NCBI GenBank assembly: GCA_964106645.2
Contig: OZ067039.1
Reading direction: 5' to 3' (one strand)
DNA: 64,000 nt
From: Podarcis pityusensis
Lineage: Eukaryota
Of this stretch, positions 33,001 through 48,000 are shown piece by piece. The stretch's first letter is position 1; every line of letters begins with the position of its first letter. The position numbers are program-made.

Positions 33001-36000
33001 GGATTTGGTTCTGAGTTGCATATGAAGATTAAATATTATCTTAAGAGCCTCCCTTCCCCACTCAGTGTGGAGAAGTGAAAATGGAAAAAAGAGGATATGT
33101 TAAATGGAGCACATGGCAGCAACATTTCACATGTGAGAACATGCTTCAAAAGCATTATTTATTATAACAAAATTTGAAAAACAGTACATATCTCAAAATA
33201 TAAAGATACCTGAAGGAAAATGCATCATACACAAAAAAATTAGATTGATATACATTACCTTAGAATTTATTATTTCAATGATTTATACACTCATTTTAAA
33301 AAAGCAAAAAACAAAAACACCTGCTGTTCTTTTGCTCTAGTATATGACATTATTATTATTATTAAGCTACTATCTATCTTTGCCCCAAAGAATCCAATAT
33401 AAAAGGAGTTCTTGGAAATTGTCATTCAGTCTGTCTAATAAAAGTGAGCAGACTGCTTCTGTATCGTCATTAAAATTAAACCTTTCAAACATCTAAGTAG
33501 AACAGTTTTCAGAGCAAATGACAAAAGCAGAGGTTGGGAAGATGTGGCCTCCCAACTCCCATCAGCCCCAACAACATGGCCAGTGGTCATGGTTGTAGGA
33601 GATGGAGTCCAACAACAAGTTGGAGGGTCACAGGTTTCTCATCCCTGTGGTAAAATAATATATTTTTTATTATCACCAGAAAGCCTTAGAGACATACATT
33701 GGTTTTAGCTCAGGGGTCAGCAAGGTTTACCTCGCCTGGGTCAGTTCACTCCAGTGGAGATCCCTCCGTGGGCCAGATAACGTGCATGCCCACAGTTTTC
33801 AGCGTCTCCACATGCACAGACGCGATTTTTGGCGCCGCGGAAGTGAGTCACCACGCTGTGCCGGTTTAGCACAGCATGCGGGGGCTTGCCAAGCAGGCAG
33901 CTCAGTTCAGGGGCAGCTCGTGGGCTGGTTAAACGACCCCTGTGGGCTGCTTGTGGCTCATGGGCCTTAGGTTGCCGACCCCTGTTTTAGCTGGTATTTC
34001 ATCTTATTAAAAAACTTTTCATATACAGTGATACCTCGGGTTAAGCACTTAATTTGTTCTGGAGGTCCGTTTTTAACCTGAAACTGTTCTTAACCTGAGA
34101 CACCACTTTAGCTAATGGGGCCTCCCACTGCCGCCGTGCCATTTCTGTTCTCATCCTGAAGCAAAGTTCTTAACCTGAGGTAATATCTCTGGGTTAGCGG
34201 AGTCTGTAACCTGAAGGGTCTGTAACCCGAGGTACCACTGTACTATAGCTACTACATCAGTTTATTCACATTTTTATCCCATTTCCCCCCCCATCTTATT
34301 TATAGTTGGTTGGGACTATTTCCCTTTGTTCGTATTGTTCACTAGAAAGTCTAGTGCCAAAAGTCTTGCATTAGTGAACAGTTTCCAAAATGTGTGAAAA
34401 TGTTCTGCTCCTGACATCTCCAGATACCACCTTGTGTCATTTCTTTCGCTACCAGTTGTCATGCCCAGTGCTGTGGAGATGAATGTCAGCCTGAAATATT
34501 GCATCTCATTGGCGCTATCAGGAGTTTTGAAAGCCCCAGACTTCTAGAAGCTGCACCTGGAAGTTTTCTTGGCAGAGAGGAGGGTTGTCAAATGTTTCGC
34601 AGTGCTCCGTTCTCCCATGATGCAGATCAGCGTCAATAAACAGAGCTTGGCCTCCTCCACCACCTGGGGGGAAACGAACAGAGATTTGTTATGGGCTGTT
34701 GCTGGCTATGAAAAGCAAACTGAAATGCTGTCCTCTGTTGTATGATCAGTAGCAGATTTCATTGCTGTGAAGTTAAATCTGAAACACTCTGATTGGAGGA
34801 CAGCAGCATATGCAGGGGCACAGAAAAGAAATGTGTGTACGGTATATCGGCCCCAAATTTTGTATTTTGCAAAACTAGTTCCTTTTCATTATAGAGTTAC
34901 TCTGTGAACAAACCACCTGCTGAAACATAGTAACAACCATTCAAATGACTTCATCTAAATAATTGAACTGGTGAAAGACAGCAAAGGGATTAATCTTGCA
35001 TTTCCAAAGACTAAACCTGACCTAAATTTCAACACGGTTTGCAAGGAGCTCCAAAATAAGCTTTTAAACTGGAAAGGCATATGCCTATCTTACGCCAAAG
35101 TACTTGGGAATATTTTCTGTGCTAATGTGATCATGTAGCCTCCTAGTGGCTGTCATCAGTAGCCATAGTTTTCTCAAGCTGCGTGTGCTGCTAGGTTGCT
35201 CACGTATAGCACAGCACCCCTGCATTATATATGAGCACAAAGGTCTCTCAGTTTAGATTAATGCCTTATTCTGCATGCAAACAGTGTAGACCGTAGGTGT
35301 ATATTGCTGCATGCTGCATGCAAGCAGTCAGGCCTCACTGAACCATCACTGGTAGGCTGTCAAGTTGATATTATTTGTGCTACCTTACATAGAGCTGTAC
35401 CTGATACCAGTGCAAGGCTTCTCATCACTCAGTTCCTCTATGAAATGTTTTGGTTTATCCTTTACCCCTAACAGCAGGGATGCGGGATCTGTTGCTAAAC
35501 TGCAACTCCCATCAGACCCAACCAGCATGGTCAATGTTTAGGTGTTTGTGCAGGATAGGTCACATGGCACATTCAGTTCTACCCCAACAACACCATGCCA
35601 CTGCTGCCTTCCTTCCCTGCCAGCAACTGCCGCTTGAGGCAGCTTCCCCACTCTAACGATAGGGCCAGTCCTGGGCACCAGAAATGTCTGTGGCACTACG
35701 GTCTCTGTGACAGCTATAGTGTCATAGTAGAAGCATAGCTACCTATGATGATCTCTTTCTGAGTTCCAGACATGAACATGGAGGCTGTTTTGGAAGGCAG
35801 CTTGAAGTGTCGAATTGCCAGGAATGGAGAGAGGCGGTATTTAATCATGTCCAGCACTGGCACAGTGAGGTGGTTTGAGCTGGTTGTTGAGTGACCCTCG
35901 GATGAGAAGGGAGACGGAGAGCGCGGGCGTGGGGATCGAGGCAGAGCTTTAGCTTGTTCCGGCTTCTTGATGAACACCCACTCGTATCGCTCCATTTCTG

Positions 36001-45000: not shown

Positions 45001-48000
45001 GCCCTCAGAGCGTGACTTCCTGCCCAGCGCCCCTCCCTCCCCAGTTTTTTGAGCTCCTTCATAGACTTGCCAAACAGGTGCTCCTGACTGTCCTGCTGTT
45101 CGTTCAGCTTGGGCATCTTGTTCTGGTCCACAAATTTGCTACAGCGTAAGCAGGAGGCTGCGTCCATGTCCATCGCAACCACCAAAGGGATTTGCAAGGA
45201 GGCCTTAGATAGATCGGTGGTCTCTGTGGAGCAAAAGCACCATGGTTCAGCATGATTCACATCTCACCATTGGGCAGATTGCTTAAACTGTTCCTGACAA
45301 CCATGGGTGAAAAGCACTGGGATTTTATCCGGTCTCTTGGGAGTTGCAACCACAGACAATTCCCACTTAAAATTTAAACACAAGCACCGGTCATAGTTAT
45401 CACTTGTCACCTCACAGGCTTTCATTTAGTCTTCTAGGTATTTGGGGATGCTTCCATCTCTCATGTAAATCAAAGCTATTTGCTCATCATTAGTTATAAA
45501 GGTAGAACAACAAAACATTTAAATGTGAGTAAGCATAGAACATAGGGACGTGGGTGGCGCTGTGGGTTAAACCACAGAGCCTAGGGCTTGCCGATCAGAA
45601 GGTCGGCGGTTCGAATCCCCGCGGCGGGGTGAGCTCCCATTGCTCTGTTCCAGCTCCTGCCAACCTAACAGTTCGAAAGCACATCAGAGGGCAAGTAGAT
45701 AAATAGGTACTGCTGTGGCGGGAAGGTAAACGGCGTTTCCGTGTGCTGCTCTGGTTTGCCAGAAGCGGCTTAGTCATGCTGGCCACATGACCCGGAAGCT
45801 GTACGCCGGCTCCCTCGGCCAATAAAGCCAGATGAGCGCCACAACCCCAGAGTCGGTCACGACTGGACCTAATGGTCAGGGGTCCCTTTACCTTTACCTT
45901 TAAGCATAGAGCAAGGGTGGTGGACCTCAGGCCTGGTGGGCTGAATGTGGCCCTTCAAGTCTCTCTGTCTGGTCCTTGGGACTCTCTCAAAGCCATACCC
46001 ACCATTAGCCTTGCTTCCCACCCTCCTTGAGTGTTTTTGCCAGGCTGGAACGTGTCTTTTAACTCTTTACTTCCTTGGGTGGAGCAGAGATAAAGGGTGT
46101 GAGAGTGTGTGTAGAAACTAGCCTACTGTCCAAGGGTAAAACTTCCATTCATTGCCCCACCCATGTTTGCCTCTGGCCTTGCTCAGCAATGGCACGCGGC
46201 CCCCAGAAGGTAATGTGGCCCTTGGGCTGAAAAGGGGTTTCCAATCCCTGGCACAGAGAATGTAGATCCATATACACATTATGCAACATATAAACATAGG
46301 CTTGTTGGTTAGGAAATCAAAATCATTAGGCATTGTTAGAATGAATAAATGGTATTCTAAAACTGATTTATAAACCACACTTTATCTTAAAGTGGTACGA
46401 AAAGGCAAAAGGAACTATTTGCATAGCAACAGGATTTTCAAAGTGCATTTTCCCAGACTGTATTTGGAGCCTAAAATCACCCAAGTAGGGAGTTCGGGAA
46501 CCTAGGAAGTATTCCATAGGCTTCCTCCAGAAAGCTTCAACTCCATTTAGATCTGAAATCAGAATCTCCTAATGTGAAATTGTTGGCATGGGCAAAAGGG
46601 TATCCACCTGCTTGATGATATGGGCCGTTCAATGTTCTAGAGGCAGACTTTTGAAAAGCCAATCAAGGAGCGAATAATATCATGCAATCTGAGCCAGGCA
46701 ACTGCATCTTCTTCAAGTAACAAGGTAGATTATCATTTAAATGAGAGAGAGGTGGGGACAGGCAGGCAGGCAGGCAGGCAATTAATAACCACTTCCTGGG
46801 AAGGCCTCCTCAGGAGAAAAGAGATGCCATGCCTGCAGCTGCAGATGACAGCCATAAAATAAACAGATGGGTTACTTTGCTGATTCTCCCCATGATGGAG
46901 TTTAGGGCTTTCTAAAATTGAAGATAGAACGTAAAACCAGTGAAACGTTAGAAATCATGGTGAATATAGGTCACATTAATCACAGTGTGTTTAATACTTA
47001 ATTGATCCTGCTTCCTGATCTGCTAAAACATAAGTAATAAAATAAAATTTAGGTTGGAATGCCCCATGCAATGTATTGTTAAATAATGTATACAGCTTTC
47101 TGTGTCTGTTAGCTATCAGGGTTGTCAAACTTTTTGTTTGCCTGGGTATCTTGCTGTAGATATCTGGATTGTGAAACATTGCAGTTAGAGCAAGGAGGCT
47201 ACTTTTATAGCGTTGCAGTATTTATGTGATGTGTGTGAATGCAATGATGTAAGAACATAAGAGCCCTGCCAGTTCAGGCCAATGGCCCATCTAGTCCAGC
47301 ATGCTGTTTTTACAGTGGCCAACCAGATGTCTGTGGGAAGCTAAACACAAGACCTAAATGCAGCAGCACTCTCCCCTCCTATGGTTTCAAGTAACTAGTA
47401 TTCAGAAGCATACAATGAAAGCATATCCTAGTCACAGTGGCTAGTAACTTTATGTTCCATCAATTTATCTAATCCTCTTTTTATTTCCATCTAAGTTGAT
47501 GACCATCTACATCCCAACACTGCTTCCCATGGGTGTTTATTCCATAATTTAACCATGTTCTTCTAGATTCAGGTACGTAGCCGTGTTGGTCAGATGCTGT
47601 TAAAATAATTTTTTTAAAAAAAATGTCCAGTAGCACCTTAGAGACCAACTAAATTTGTTCTGGGTACAGTGGTACCTCAGGTTAAGAACTTAGTTCATTC
47701 TGGAGGTCTGTTCTTAACCTGAAACTGTTCTTAACCTGAGGTACCACTTTAGCTAATGGGGCCTCCCGCTGCCACCATGCCACCACCGTGCAATTCCTGT
47801 TCTCATCCTGAAGCAAAGTTCTTAACCAGAGGTACTATTTCTGGGTTAGCAGAGTCTGTAACCTGAAGCGTCTGTAACCCGAGGTACCACGGTATAAGCT
47901 TTTGTGTGCATGCACACTTCTTCATATACCTTAGAGACCAACTAAGTTTGTTCTGGGTATAAGCTTTCGTGTGTATGCACACTTCTTCAGATAACTATGT

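What the first reader, a model, noticed from the sequence alone, without database searches (positions are those of the whole stretch)
34518..45223. Intact, divergent TBC1D24 paralog at a locus where I recall no such gene in human
Seen: six exons splice into an open frame of 570 aa from ATG 45173, with TBC and TLDc domains and 159/64/96-nt exons matching recalled TBC1D24 structure. Established, from recall: human TBC1D24 is on chr16 next to ATP6V0C, not next to CFAP52/STX8; it binds phosphoinositides through a cationic pocket (K36, R40, K238, R242, R293) and is an epilepsy/deafness gene. The equivalent basic residues are retained here (ELKKLGR, EGQKVLYR, RLFSRK), as is the TLDc glutamate (LLEVWGF). 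No SVSLSK microexon was found. Inference: an old, probably uncharacterised paralog lost in the mammalian lineage, likely still a lipid-binding, V-ATPase-associated trafficking protein.
Basis: partly seen in the sequence, partly recalled or inferred. Interest (0 to 1): 0.7.

Follow-up and report, generated by a model that had tools for sequence, protein, structure and literature searches.

The report
Lizard TBC1D24-like gene, an ancient paralog
This is an intact lizard copy of TBC1D24-like, an old sister gene of the epilepsy and deafness gene TBC1D24 that most jawed vertebrates keep and mammals appear to lack; databases annotate it, but nobody seems to have studied it.

Summary
The six exons, their GT-AG borders and the open 570-codon frame are real. 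The model is short at its 5' end. A further coding exon (51859-51670) splices into the large exon at 45223. That gives seven coding exons and 650 aa, which tile the Lacerta agilis protein "TBC1D24-like" end to end (622 of 646 residues identical). The window is therefore lacertid lizard DNA, not human.

Trees place the gene in a clade separate from true TBC1D24 (98-100% support). Grouping it with the orthologs is rejected (p 1e-22). A duplication inside the lobe-finned lineage is also rejected (p 1e-84), so the split predates the shark/bony-vertebrate divergence. No mammal appears among the 120 best like-clade hits.

All five basic residues of the lipid pocket and the TLDc glutamate are kept. 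The RabGAP arginine and glutamine fingers are absent, as in TBC1D24. CFAP52 lies downstream; STX8 was not found.

The gene is already annotated (TBC1D24L in chicken). Two full-text searches found only table entries in two papers. Lipid binding and V-ATPase association are inferred, not tested.

The parts
51670..51859 (-). ATG at 51859 directly follows an in-frame TAA. A second ATG at 51808 opens the motif MLQIGLSYTSP, which is conserved in squamates, turtle, crocodilians and chicken. Donor GT at 51669-51668; the exon ends in phase 1.
   Evidence: tblastn of 7 orthologs; sequence; 58 of 63 residues identical to P0146 residues 1-63; N-termini listed
44191..45223 (-). Large exon (1033 nt) encoding a conserved N-terminal segment and the whole TBC domain. 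The acceptor AG is at 45225-45224.
   Evidence: Pfam RabGAP-TBC E 2.2e-23. 328 of 343 residues identical to P0146 65-407. Best solved relative is the Drosophila Skywalker TBC domain, 5hjn, E 3.4e-27
43068..43226 (-). 159-nt exon, start of the TLDc domain.
   Evidence: Pfam TLD profile positions 2-43, E 0.0041, below the cut-off on its own. 51 of 52 identical to P0146
39535..39598 (-). 64-nt exon (TLDc).
   Evidence: 21 of 21 identical to P0146
37883..37978 (-). 96-nt exon (TLDc).
   Evidence: 31 of 32 identical to P0146
35743..36007 (-). 265-nt exon. It encodes a Ser/Pro/Arg-rich loop of about 55 residues inserted in the TLDc fold, then returns to the fold.
   Evidence: 86 of 88 identical to P0146. 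In the alignments to the Skywalker TLDc (6r82) and zebrafish OXR2 (4acj), P0146 residues 529-587 have no counterpart
34518..34663 (-). Last coding exon (end of TLDc); stop TGA at 34520-34518.
   Evidence: Pfam TLD profile positions 121-170, E 1e-9, 39 bits against a cut-off of 24.5. 47 of 47 identical to P0146
45036..45050 (-). Codons for the first two basic pocket residues: Lys (45050-45048) and Arg (45038-45036) of ELKKLGR.
   Evidence: Sequence. Aligned with K and R of the Skywalker stretch DVKNILRE. Invariant in 25 of 25 rows from both clades
44430..44444 (-). Codons for Lys (44444-44442) and Arg (44432-44430) of EGQKVLYR. The Arg corresponds to the human disease residue R242.
   Evidence: Human R242 is named as a pocket residue in PMC7015432 (passages)
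44277..44279 (-). Codon for the Arg of AFSIR, the fifth pocket residue. It corresponds to human R293.
44760..44768 (-). Y-C-P at the place of the RabGAP 'YxQ' glutamine finger; the glutamine is replaced by proline.
   Evidence: HMMER alignment to TBC1D14 (2qq8), where Y-V-Q aligns with Y-C-P. The only Y.Q in the exon lies 14 residues further on, and there is no [ILVM]xxDxxR motif
34542..34544 (-). Codon for the conserved TLDc glutamate in LLEVWGF.
   Evidence: In the ortholog P0146 it aligns with the Glu of zebrafish OXR2 and of the Skywalker TLDc. The matching NCOA7 mutant E938A weakened V-ATPase pull-down (PMC8608904, passages)
44092..44168 (-). tRNA-like head of a SINE inside the intron that follows the large exon. 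It is not part of the gene product.
   Evidence: Rfam tRNA, 33.3 bits. ARAGORN calls no tRNA gene
15910..16287 (-). Neighbour gene CFAP52, same strand, downstream. This ORF holds the exon for CFAP52 residues of about 22-91. It serves as the synteny marker.
   Evidence: E 4.5e-33 against solved CFAP52 chains. A further WD40 exon lies at 14987-15169

Best explanation
What it is. The locus is the lacertid-lizard ortholog of the vertebrate gene annotated 'TBC1 domain family member 24-like' (TBC1D24L in chicken). It has seven coding exons on the minus strand between 51859 and 34518. It encodes about 650 aa, or 633 aa if the conserved second ATG is used. It lies upstream of CFAP52.

Origin. It is a paralog of TBC1D24, not a moved ortholog. 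The two genes separated before sharks and bony vertebrates diverged, which fits the early vertebrate genome duplications. The like copy has since evolved two to three times faster than TBC1D24, yet it is still under purifying selection. It is present in cartilaginous fish, ray-finned fish, coelacanth, amphibians and sauropsids. It was not found in mammals.

How it most likely works (inferred). The TBC domain lacks both catalytic fingers, so it is probably not a conventional Rab GTPase activator. It keeps the five basic residues that form the phosphoinositide pocket of Skywalker/TBC1D24, so it probably docks on PI(4,5)P2-type membranes. The TLDc domain keeps the family's conserved core and probably contacts the V-ATPase, as the five mammalian TLDc proteins do. 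The extra N-terminal segment and the loop inside TLDc are variable and Ser/Arg/Pro-rich, and may be regulatory.

Shown: gene structure, orthology, age of the duplication, residue conservation. Inferred: lipid binding, V-ATPase contact, trafficking role.
For: Structure. The seven exons tile P0146 (Lacerta agilis, 650 aa) with 622 of 646 residues identical.

Orthology: window and P0146 are sisters (100/100) inside a squamate, then sauropsid, then tetrapod like-clade. Holding the squamate like-rows together with the true clade costs 105.6 log-likelihood units, AU p 1e-22.

Age: the true clade (98/93) contains four sharks and excludes all like-rows. A clade of lobe-finned like-rows plus lobe-finned true rows is rejected (167 units, p 1e-84). 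Proteins named '-like' exist in Callorhinchus, Erpetoichthys, Polyodon, Huso and Lepisosteus.

Both copies in one species: Rhineura, Crotalus, Empidonax, Buceros, Tinamus, Chrysolophus and Latimeria.

Rate: Lacerta-Gallus is 64.5% identical for the like copy, against 88.1% for Podarcis-Numida TBC1D24. Of 650 positions, 203 are at least 90% conserved across 22 like-rows.

Synteny: CFAP52 is downstream in the window. A chicken chromosome 18 interval lists TBC1D24L together with CFAP52 and USP43 (PMC12193209, table passage).

Expression elsewhere: barn owl LOC104369395/TBC1D24L appears in a feather co-expression table (PMC11799826, table passage).

Function leads: the five pocket residues are invariant in 25 of 25 rows and align with Skywalker. 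The fingers are absent. The TLDc part matches Skywalker 6r82 (E 3.3e-41) and OXR2 4acj. All five mammalian TLDc proteins co-precipitate V-ATPase (PMC8608904, abstract and passages). The TBC1D24 pocket binds PI(4,5)P2 (PMC7015432, passages).
Against: No transcript data exist for this lizard, so the use of the first exon and the choice of start codon rest on orthologs' models. These are mostly automatic predictions.

A separate true TBC1D24 could not be looked for in this genome. It is only known from the related lacertids Podarcis and Zootoca (P0101, P0058).

The place of the ray-finned fish and Callorhinchus rows is less secure than the bootstrap suggests. Moving them all to the true side costs only 8.3 log-likelihood units, AU p 0.099. 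Callorhinchus matches the like state at 10 diagnostic sites and the true state at 8, out of 20.

The root rests on four unnamed, long-branched representatives.

Absence from mammals rests on truncated lists of annotated proteins.

[quoted passage not shown] The like copy has lost constraint at many sites that TBC1D24 keeps: 134 positions are conserved only in the true clade against 41 only in the like clade. The structure model of the large exon was too poor to inspect the pocket (mean pLDDT 48).
Confidence: 0.85

Rival explanations
1. It is the lizard's only TBC1D24, moved to a new locus (a translocated ortholog).
For: It has the same two-domain architecture and the same 159/64/96-nt exon series. 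UniProt names several like-clade proteins simply 'TBC1D24'.
Against: The window falls in the other clade, which has 98-100% support. The constrained tree is rejected, p 1e-22. It is only 52% identical to Podarcis TBC1D24 over the large exon, against 96% to the L. agilis like protein. Three other squamates (Rhineura, Crotalus, Hemicordylus) have both proteins.
Confidence: 0.02
2. It is a recent, lineage-restricted duplicate or a decaying copy (a pseudogene in the making) confined to reptiles and birds.
For: The like clade has long branches. Fewer positions are under clade-specific constraint: 41 against 134.
Against: All introns are retained and all seven exons are open with canonical splice sites. 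Orthologs reach coelacanth, amphibians, ray-finned fish and a chimaera. A duplication within the lobe-finned lineage is rejected, p 1e-84. 203 positions are conserved across the clade.
Confidence: 0.03
3. The protein has kept the fold but changed its job. It would no longer bind lipid or V-ATPase like TBC1D24 and would act in non-neuronal tissues through new partners, via its N-terminal extension and its faster-evolving surface.
For: It evolves two to three times faster than TBC1D24. It has an extra, variable N-terminal exon that true TBC1D24 lacks. There is no CpG island at its 5' exon (observed/expected CpG about 0.1), whereas CFAP52 has one at 17.5-18.5 kb (0.84). The only expression mention seen is in feather tissue.
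Against: The five pocket residues and the TLDc core are invariant or nearly so across more than 20 like-clade species. That is hard to explain if those surfaces were idle. Only 7 positions are fixed differently between the clades, and all are conservative changes.
Confidence: 0.25

Closest known systems
TBC1D24-like / TBC1D24L as annotated in other vertebrates (for example Lacerta agilis P0146, chicken TBC1D24L)
   Same: Same gene. The seven exons tile the 650-aa L. agilis protein at 96% identity. It falls in the same clade. It has the same CFAP52 neighbourhood as reported for chicken chromosome 18.
   Different: Nothing of substance. The window adds a further lacertid copy. The names are automatic annotation, and I found no functional study.
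TBC1D24 (human 16p13.3; epilepsy, DOORS syndrome and deafness gene)
   Same: TBC plus TLDc architecture, the five basic pocket residues, no arginine or glutamine finger, and a long loop inside TLDc. A human exon ends at c.1206 (1206+5G>A, PMC3895324, passages).
   Different: It is a separate clade, about 52-55% identical. The locus differs: CFAP52 here, against ATP6V0C/AMDHD2/PDPK1 in human (PMC9120599, passage). It has an extra 5' coding exon and an N-terminal extension of about 80 aa. It evolves faster. No counterpart of the alternative 6-aa microexon was found in the lizard.
Drosophila Skywalker (solved TBC domain 5hjn/5hjq, solved TLDc domain 6r82)
   Same: It is the best solved relative of both halves: E 3.4e-27 for the window's large exon, and E 3.3e-41 for the TLDc part of the ortholog P0146. 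The pocket residues align.
   Different: Skywalker is the single invertebrate pre-duplication gene, with about 30% identity. It lacks the loop of about 55 residues inside TLDc.
Other TLDc proteins (OXR1, NCOA7, TLDC2, mEAK-7)
   Same: The C-terminal TLDc fold, with the conserved glycine run and glutamate. The ortholog matches OXR2 4acj at E 1.2e-22 and NCOA7 at about 1e-16.
   Different: Those proteins have no TBC domain. Their isolated TLDc domains pull down V-ATPase, whereas that of Tbc1d24 did not.

Membership tests
TBC1D24-like (TBC1D24L) orthologous group | Falls inside the clade of proteins annotated TBC1D24-like, apart from TBC1D24 | tested here: met
   Sister to L. agilis TBC1D24-like at 100/100. 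The like clade has 100/100 support (49 rows) and 98/99 (39 rows).
TBC1D24-like (TBC1D24L) orthologous group | Linked to CFAP52 | tested here: met
   A CFAP52 exon lies at 15910-16287 on the same strand. Chicken TBC1D24L is listed with CFAP52 and USP43 in one chromosome 18 interval (table passage). Other species could not be checked, because no vertebrate genomes are held.
TBC1D24-like (TBC1D24L) orthologous group | Separate 5' coding exon giving an N-terminal extension upstream of the FVD..K.P motif | tested here: met
   The exon at 51859-51670 matches the N-termini of 7 of 7 longer orthologs tried, with E from 1e-31 to 1.6e-4. True-clade proteins start close to the FVD motif.
TBC1D24 (true orthologs) | Groups with mammalian, shark and other TBC1D24 in a tree | tested here: not met
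   The constrained tree is rejected, p 1e-22.
TBC1D24 (true orthologs) | Neighbourhood of ATP6V0C, AMDHD2 and PDPK1 (human 16p13.3, PMC9120599) | tested here: not met
   The neighbour found is CFAP52. None of the 450 ORFs scanned against Pfam gave a V-ATPase proteolipid or any other such hit. The window reaches only 12 kb upstream of the gene.
TBC1D24 (true orthologs) | Alternative 6-aa microexon between the large exon and the 159-nt exon | tested here: inconclusive
   True-clade squamates show isoforms with and without 6 residues (P0101, P0114, P0058 against P0083, P0062). The window intron has 5 in-frame AG-N18/N24-GT candidates; 3 lie in a SINE and none resembles known inserts.
TBC-TLDc two-domain proteins (Skywalker/TBC1D24 type) | RabGAP-TBC domain followed by a TLDc domain in one protein | tested here: met
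   Tested exon by exon. TBC E 2.2e-23 in the large exon. TLD E 0.0041 (profile positions 2-43) in the 159-nt exon and E 1e-9 (positions 121-170) in the last exon. Both domains match Skywalker.
Phosphoinositide-binding pocket of Skywalker/TBC1D24 | Five basic residues (human R40, R242 and R293; the labels K36 and K238 are recalled) | tested here: met
   K, R, K, R and R are present. They are invariant in 25 of 25 aligned rows and aligned to Skywalker.
Phosphoinositide-binding pocket of Skywalker/TBC1D24 | Actual binding of PI(4,5)P2 or related lipids | not testable with these tools
   This needs liposome or lipid-strip assays. The structure model was too poor to inspect (mean pLDDT 48).
Catalytically competent dual-finger TBC RabGAPs | Arginine finger (IxxDxxR) and glutamine finger (YxQ) | tested here: not met
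   There is no [ILVM]xxDxxR motif in the large exon. Y-C-P aligns with the Y-V-Q of TBC1D14. TBC1D24 is also described as lacking the arginine finger.
TLDc proteins that interact with V-ATPase | Conserved TLDc core (glycine run, C-terminal glutamate) | tested here: met
   The GGGGGQA run and LLEVWGF are in the last exon. In the ortholog they align with OXR2 and Skywalker.
TLDc proteins that interact with V-ATPase | Physical association with V-ATPase | not testable with these tools
   Known for the five mammalian members by co-immunoprecipitation. No complex prediction was run, because a pass would only reflect likeness to solved TLDc complexes.

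The most novel reading that the evidence does not exclude
Mammals and ray-finned fishes may have kept opposite copies of an ancient gene pair. Every ray-finned fish protein I could place falls in the like clade: reedfish, paddlefish, sturgeon, gar, bowfin, three eels and one unnamed representative. 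This includes bowfin and eel proteins named plain 'TBC1D24'. The true clade in my sample holds sharks and lobe-finned vertebrates only. If teleost 'tbc1d24' is really TBC1D24L, then fish models of TBC1D24 disease study the gene that mammals lost. In birds, reptiles and frogs, the second copy could mask TBC1D24 phenotypes.
Probability: 0.15. Interest if true: 0.65.

Novelty: new member of a known kind. Interest (0 to 1): 0.4.

Why it matters
TBC1D24 is a major human epilepsy, DOORS syndrome and deafness gene. Mammalian work treats it as the only protein that joins a TBC domain to a TLDc domain, one of five TLDc proteins. Most other jawed vertebrates carry a second such gene that has stayed intact since before sharks and bony vertebrates split. 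That gene keeps the lipid-pocket residues, three of which (R40, R242, R293) are sites of human disease variants.

This matters for choosing and reading non-mammalian models such as chicken, Xenopus, lizard and perhaps fish. Redundancy or mistaken orthology could hide or change phenotypes there. The pair also offers a natural comparison for asking which surfaces of TBC1D24 are essential. The gene itself is not a discovery, since annotation pipelines already name it. What is missing is any study of it.

Tried and rejected
1. AlphaFold2 model of the large exon with a 25-row alignment: mean pLDDT 48.2, pTM 0.43. It was too poor to use, so no fold search was run on it.

2. The listing of cluster members on ten unnamed representatives did not complete because the database is off. 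The taxa of P0213-P0221 therefore stay unknown, except P0212, which named as Erpetoichthys. P0215-P0219 were left unused because they could be mammalian.

3. STX8. No Pfam hit appeared among the ORFs of at least 55 aa outside the gene or among the ORFs of 33-54 aa above 51.9 kb; 450 ORFs were scanned in all. Nothing recognisable appeared in the three plus-strand frames next to the CFAP52 CpG island. A paper search for CFAP52 + STX8 + 17p13 found 0 papers.

4. A possible CFAP52 first exon (ATG 17883, minus strand) gave no match to solved chains. That reading rests on recall only.

5. Microexon search in intron 44190-43227: five chance-level candidates.

6. First rooted tree: three very long unnamed rows (P0220, P0273, P0279) were dropped before the final tree.

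7. Rfam and ARAGORN found only a SINE-type tRNA-like element.

8. No complex prediction was run.

9. The joined, spliced protein of the window was never built, searched or folded. Every search used single exons, and full-length comparisons used the stored ortholog P0146.

10. Supplementary files of the owl and chicken papers, which may hold expression values for TBC1D24L, are closed and were not seen.

Full report
OBSERVATION

They are 45173-44191 (983 nt from the ATG), 43226-43068 (159), 39598-39535 (64), 37978-37883 (96), 36007-35743 (265) and 34663-34518 (146, with TGA at 34520-34518). Each intron begins with GT and ends with AG. The lengths add to 1713 nt, which is 570 codons and a stop. 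The window holds no N. Pfam, run on single exons, finds RabGAP-TBC in the large exon (E 2.2e-23). It finds the two ends of a TLD domain in the 159-nt exon (profile positions 2-43, E 0.0041) and in the last exon (positions 121-170, E 1e-9).

THE MODEL IS SHORT AT ITS 5' END

The large exon's frame stays open upstream of ATG 45173. Orthologs align to that upstream stretch as far as a good acceptor (pyrimidine tract, AG at 45225-45224). Seven longer orthologs also match a further exon at 51859-51670, with donor GT at 51669. ATG 51859 directly follows an in-frame TAA. A second ATG at 51808 opens the motif MLQIGLSYTSP, whose counterpart begins the squamate, turtle, crocodilian and chicken proteins.

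With this exon the coding sequence is 190+1033+159+64+96+265+146 = 1953 nt, or 650 aa. Taken one at a time, the seven exon translations cover the 650-aa Lacerta agilis protein 'TBC1D24-like' (P0146) at residues 1-63, 65-407, 409-460, 462-482, 483-514, 515-602 and 604-650. 622 of 646 residues are identical, and the four skipped residues are the codons split by introns. The window is therefore from a lacertid lizard, not from human. Full-length comparisons use P0146 as a stand-in.

PARALOG OR ORTHOLOG

A search with the large exon returned two tiers of hits (120 listed of 390 with E up to 0.001). Proteins mostly named 'TBC1D24-like' were 54-86% identical. Proteins named TBC1D24 were about 51-54% identical, often from the same species.

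A careful maximum-likelihood tree of 49 rows splits them into two clades across a 100/100 branch. One clade holds shark, coelacanth, lungfish, frog, opossum, turtle, bird and squamate TBC1D24. The other holds coelacanth-like, frog-like, crocodile, turtle, bird and squamate rows, including the window. Rhineura, Crotalus, Empidonax, Buceros, Tinamus, Chrysolophus and Latimeria each have one protein in each clade.

A second tree has 39 rows and 603 columns. It is rooted on four low-scoring unnamed representatives; three very long rows had been dropped first. It gives a true clade with 98/93 support and a like clade with 98/99. The window is sister to L. agilis at 100/100. Forcing the squamate like-rows to join the true clade is rejected (105.6 log-likelihood units, AU p 1e-22). 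I named that group after seeing the tree, which weakens the formal test. I could not look for the second gene in this same genome, but the lacertids Podarcis and Zootoca have a true TBC1D24 (P0101, P0058).

AGE AND SPREAD

A profile of ten like-clade proteins found 705 proteins at E up to 1e-20. All 120 listed scored 931 bits or more. By their names they come from crocodilians, turtles, squamates, birds (chicken and zebra finch included), frogs, salamanders, caecilians and the coelacanth. One is unnamed. None is from a mammal, ray-finned fish, shark or lungfish.

A search of 50%-identity representatives then gave a like-type protein (P0212). The last homolog search named it Erpetoichthys 'TBC1D24-like', and found '-like' proteins in Polyodon, Huso, Lepisosteus and Callorhinchus.

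In the rooted tree these rows fall in the like clade. So do a bowfin protein and three eel proteins named plain TBC1D24. That placement is the weaker part of the picture. Moving all ten fish rows to the true side costs only 8.3 log-likelihood units (AU p 0.099). At 20 diagnostic sites the fish rows match the like state more often than the true state, from 13 against 5 in Erpetoichthys down to 10 against 8 in Callorhinchus. One polarised site favours the like grouping and none favours the other.

The age of the duplication does not depend on those rows. Shark TBC1D24 groups with lobe-finned TBC1D24 to the exclusion of lobe-finned like-proteins. A clade uniting the two lobe-finned sets is rejected (167 units, p 1e-84). 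Given a root outside vertebrates, the split predates the shark/bony-vertebrate divergence. That fits the early vertebrate genome duplications. The fit with known paired chromosome regions (human 16p13 and 17p13) is from my recall and was not tested.

ABSENCE FROM MAMMALS

This is supported only indirectly. No mammal appears among the like-clade hits. Opossum TBC1D24 is in the true clade. A paper on the family counts five mammalian TLDc proteins, with Tbc1d24 the only one of the five named as a TBC-family protein (PMC8608904, abstract and passages). No mammalian genome could be searched here.

CONSTRAINT

The like copy evolves two to three times faster than TBC1D24. Lacerta-Gallus is 64.5% identical, against 88.1% for Podarcis-Numida TBC1D24. 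Lacerta-Caretta is 70.6%, against 86.8% for Podarcis-Mauremys. Even so, 203 of 650 positions are at least 90% conserved across 22 like-rows. Of these, 162 are shared with the true clade and 41 are particular to the like clade. A further 134 positions are conserved only in the true clade. Only 7 positions are fixed differently in the two clades, and all are conservative changes. This is an expressed-gene pattern with relaxed, not absent, selection.

FUNCTIONAL ANATOMY

The best solved relative of the large exon is the Drosophila Skywalker TBC domain (5hjn, E 3.4e-27). For the TLDc part of the ortholog it is the Skywalker TLDc domain (6r82, E 3.3e-41), then zebrafish OXR2 and NCOA7.

The five basic residues are the Lys and Arg of ELKKLGR, the Lys and Arg of EGQKVLYR, and the Arg of AFSIR. 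They align with Skywalker and are invariant in 25 of 25 rows spanning both clades. A paper on TBC1D24 states that the pocket binds PI(4,5)P2, that R40, R242 and R293 variants disrupt it, and that TBC1D24 lacks the arginine finger (PMC7015432, passages).

In the window there is no IxxDxxR motif. The glutamine-finger position reads Y-C-P where TBC1D14 has Y-V-Q. So a conventional RabGAP mechanism is unlikely, as for TBC1D24.

The TLDc glutamate (LLEVWGF) and the glycine run are kept. The corresponding NCOA7 mutants lose or weaken V-ATPase pull-down. [quoted passage not shown] Lipid docking plus V-ATPase contact is thus the best-supported mechanism. It remains an inference; I give it about even odds.

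Two regions set the like protein apart from the core fold. One is the N-terminal extension of about 80 aa, partly encoded by the extra exon, which true TBC1D24 lacks. The other is a loop of about 55 residues inside TLDc, which Skywalker and OXR2 lack.

NEIGHBOURHOOD

CFAP52 lies downstream on the same strand. ORF 15910-16287 matches residues 22-91 of solved CFAP52 chains (E 4.5e-33), and a further WD40 exon lies at 14987-15169. A CpG island sits at 17.5-18.5 kb. There is none at the 5' exon of the like gene.

A chicken study lists TBC1D24L with CFAP52 and USP43 in one chromosome 18 interval (PMC12193209, table passage), so the linkage is shared by a bird and a lizard. Human TBC1D24 lies at 16p13.3 with ATP6V0C, AMDHD2 and PDPK1 (PMC9120599, passage). 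STX8 could not be found in the window.

WHAT IS KNOWN

Two full-text searches were run. The first used 'TBC1D24-like', 'TBC1D24L', 'TBC1D24 paralog' and 'tbc1d24b'. The second used TBC1D24 + zebrafish + paralog. The symbol turned up only in table entries of two papers: the chicken study above, and a barn-owl feather co-expression table that shows the gene is transcribed there (PMC11799826, table passage). One mouse paper speculates about compensation 'by a paralog' without naming any (PMC7598720, passages).

The gene is therefore annotated and named, but as far as these searches reach nobody has studied it. Supplements were closed and may hold expression values.

VERDICT

This is a real, intact gene. 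It is one more ortholog of an already annotated gene. Interest is moderate. The point worth following is the orthology of fish 'tbc1d24', together with possible redundancy in non-mammalian disease models.

Noticed in passing
Proteins P0371 (Amia), P0366, P0367, P0370 (eels), P0214 (unnamed); no window coordinates: Ray-finned fish proteins named plain 'TBC1D24' fall in the like clade, and no ray-finned fish row fell in the true clade. The sample is biased, because these came from a search seeded with a like protein, and the AU test does not reject moving them (p 0.099). A zebrafish paper reports that tbc1d24 knockouts have no hearing defect (PMC11915512, passages).
   Followed up: partly
Like-clade proteins P0027, P0031, P0036, P0037, P0038, P0039 (birds) and P0014 (turtle); corresponds to window intron 44190-43227: Several bird and turtle models of the like gene carry a similar 6-10 residue Ser/Pro-rich insert exactly at the junction where true TBC1D24 has its alternative 6-aa microexon. 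The microexon may therefore predate the duplication. No counterpart was found in the lizard intron.
   Followed up: partly
window 17500-18500: A CpG island (GC 0.56-0.61, observed/expected CpG 0.69-0.84). It holds an ATG-ORF on the minus strand from 17883 that I take, from recall only, for CFAP52 exon 1. A search of solved chains gave no match.
   Followed up: partly
window 19016-20059 (+): A 348-aa open frame with a reverse-transcriptase domain (RVT_1, E 1.1e-24). It is a LINE-type retroelement fragment between CFAP52 and the like gene.
   Followed up: no
window 44092-44168 (-); similar translated repeats near 41757-41918 and 45539-45706: tRNA-like SINE heads inside and beside the gene (Rfam tRNA at 33.3 bits; not called by ARAGORN). 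Similar peptide strings recur in the ORF list.
   Followed up: no
Protein P0203 (Gastrophryne carolinensis TBC1D24-like, 830 aa): The precomputed domains include a reverse transcriptase (PF00078) ahead of TBC and TLD. This is probably an annotation that fuses a retroelement with the gene.
   Followed up: no
window 50500-54000: There is no CpG island around the first coding exon of the like gene (observed/expected CpG 0.05-0.20). This would suit a tissue-restricted promoter or an untranslated exon further upstream.
   Followed up: no
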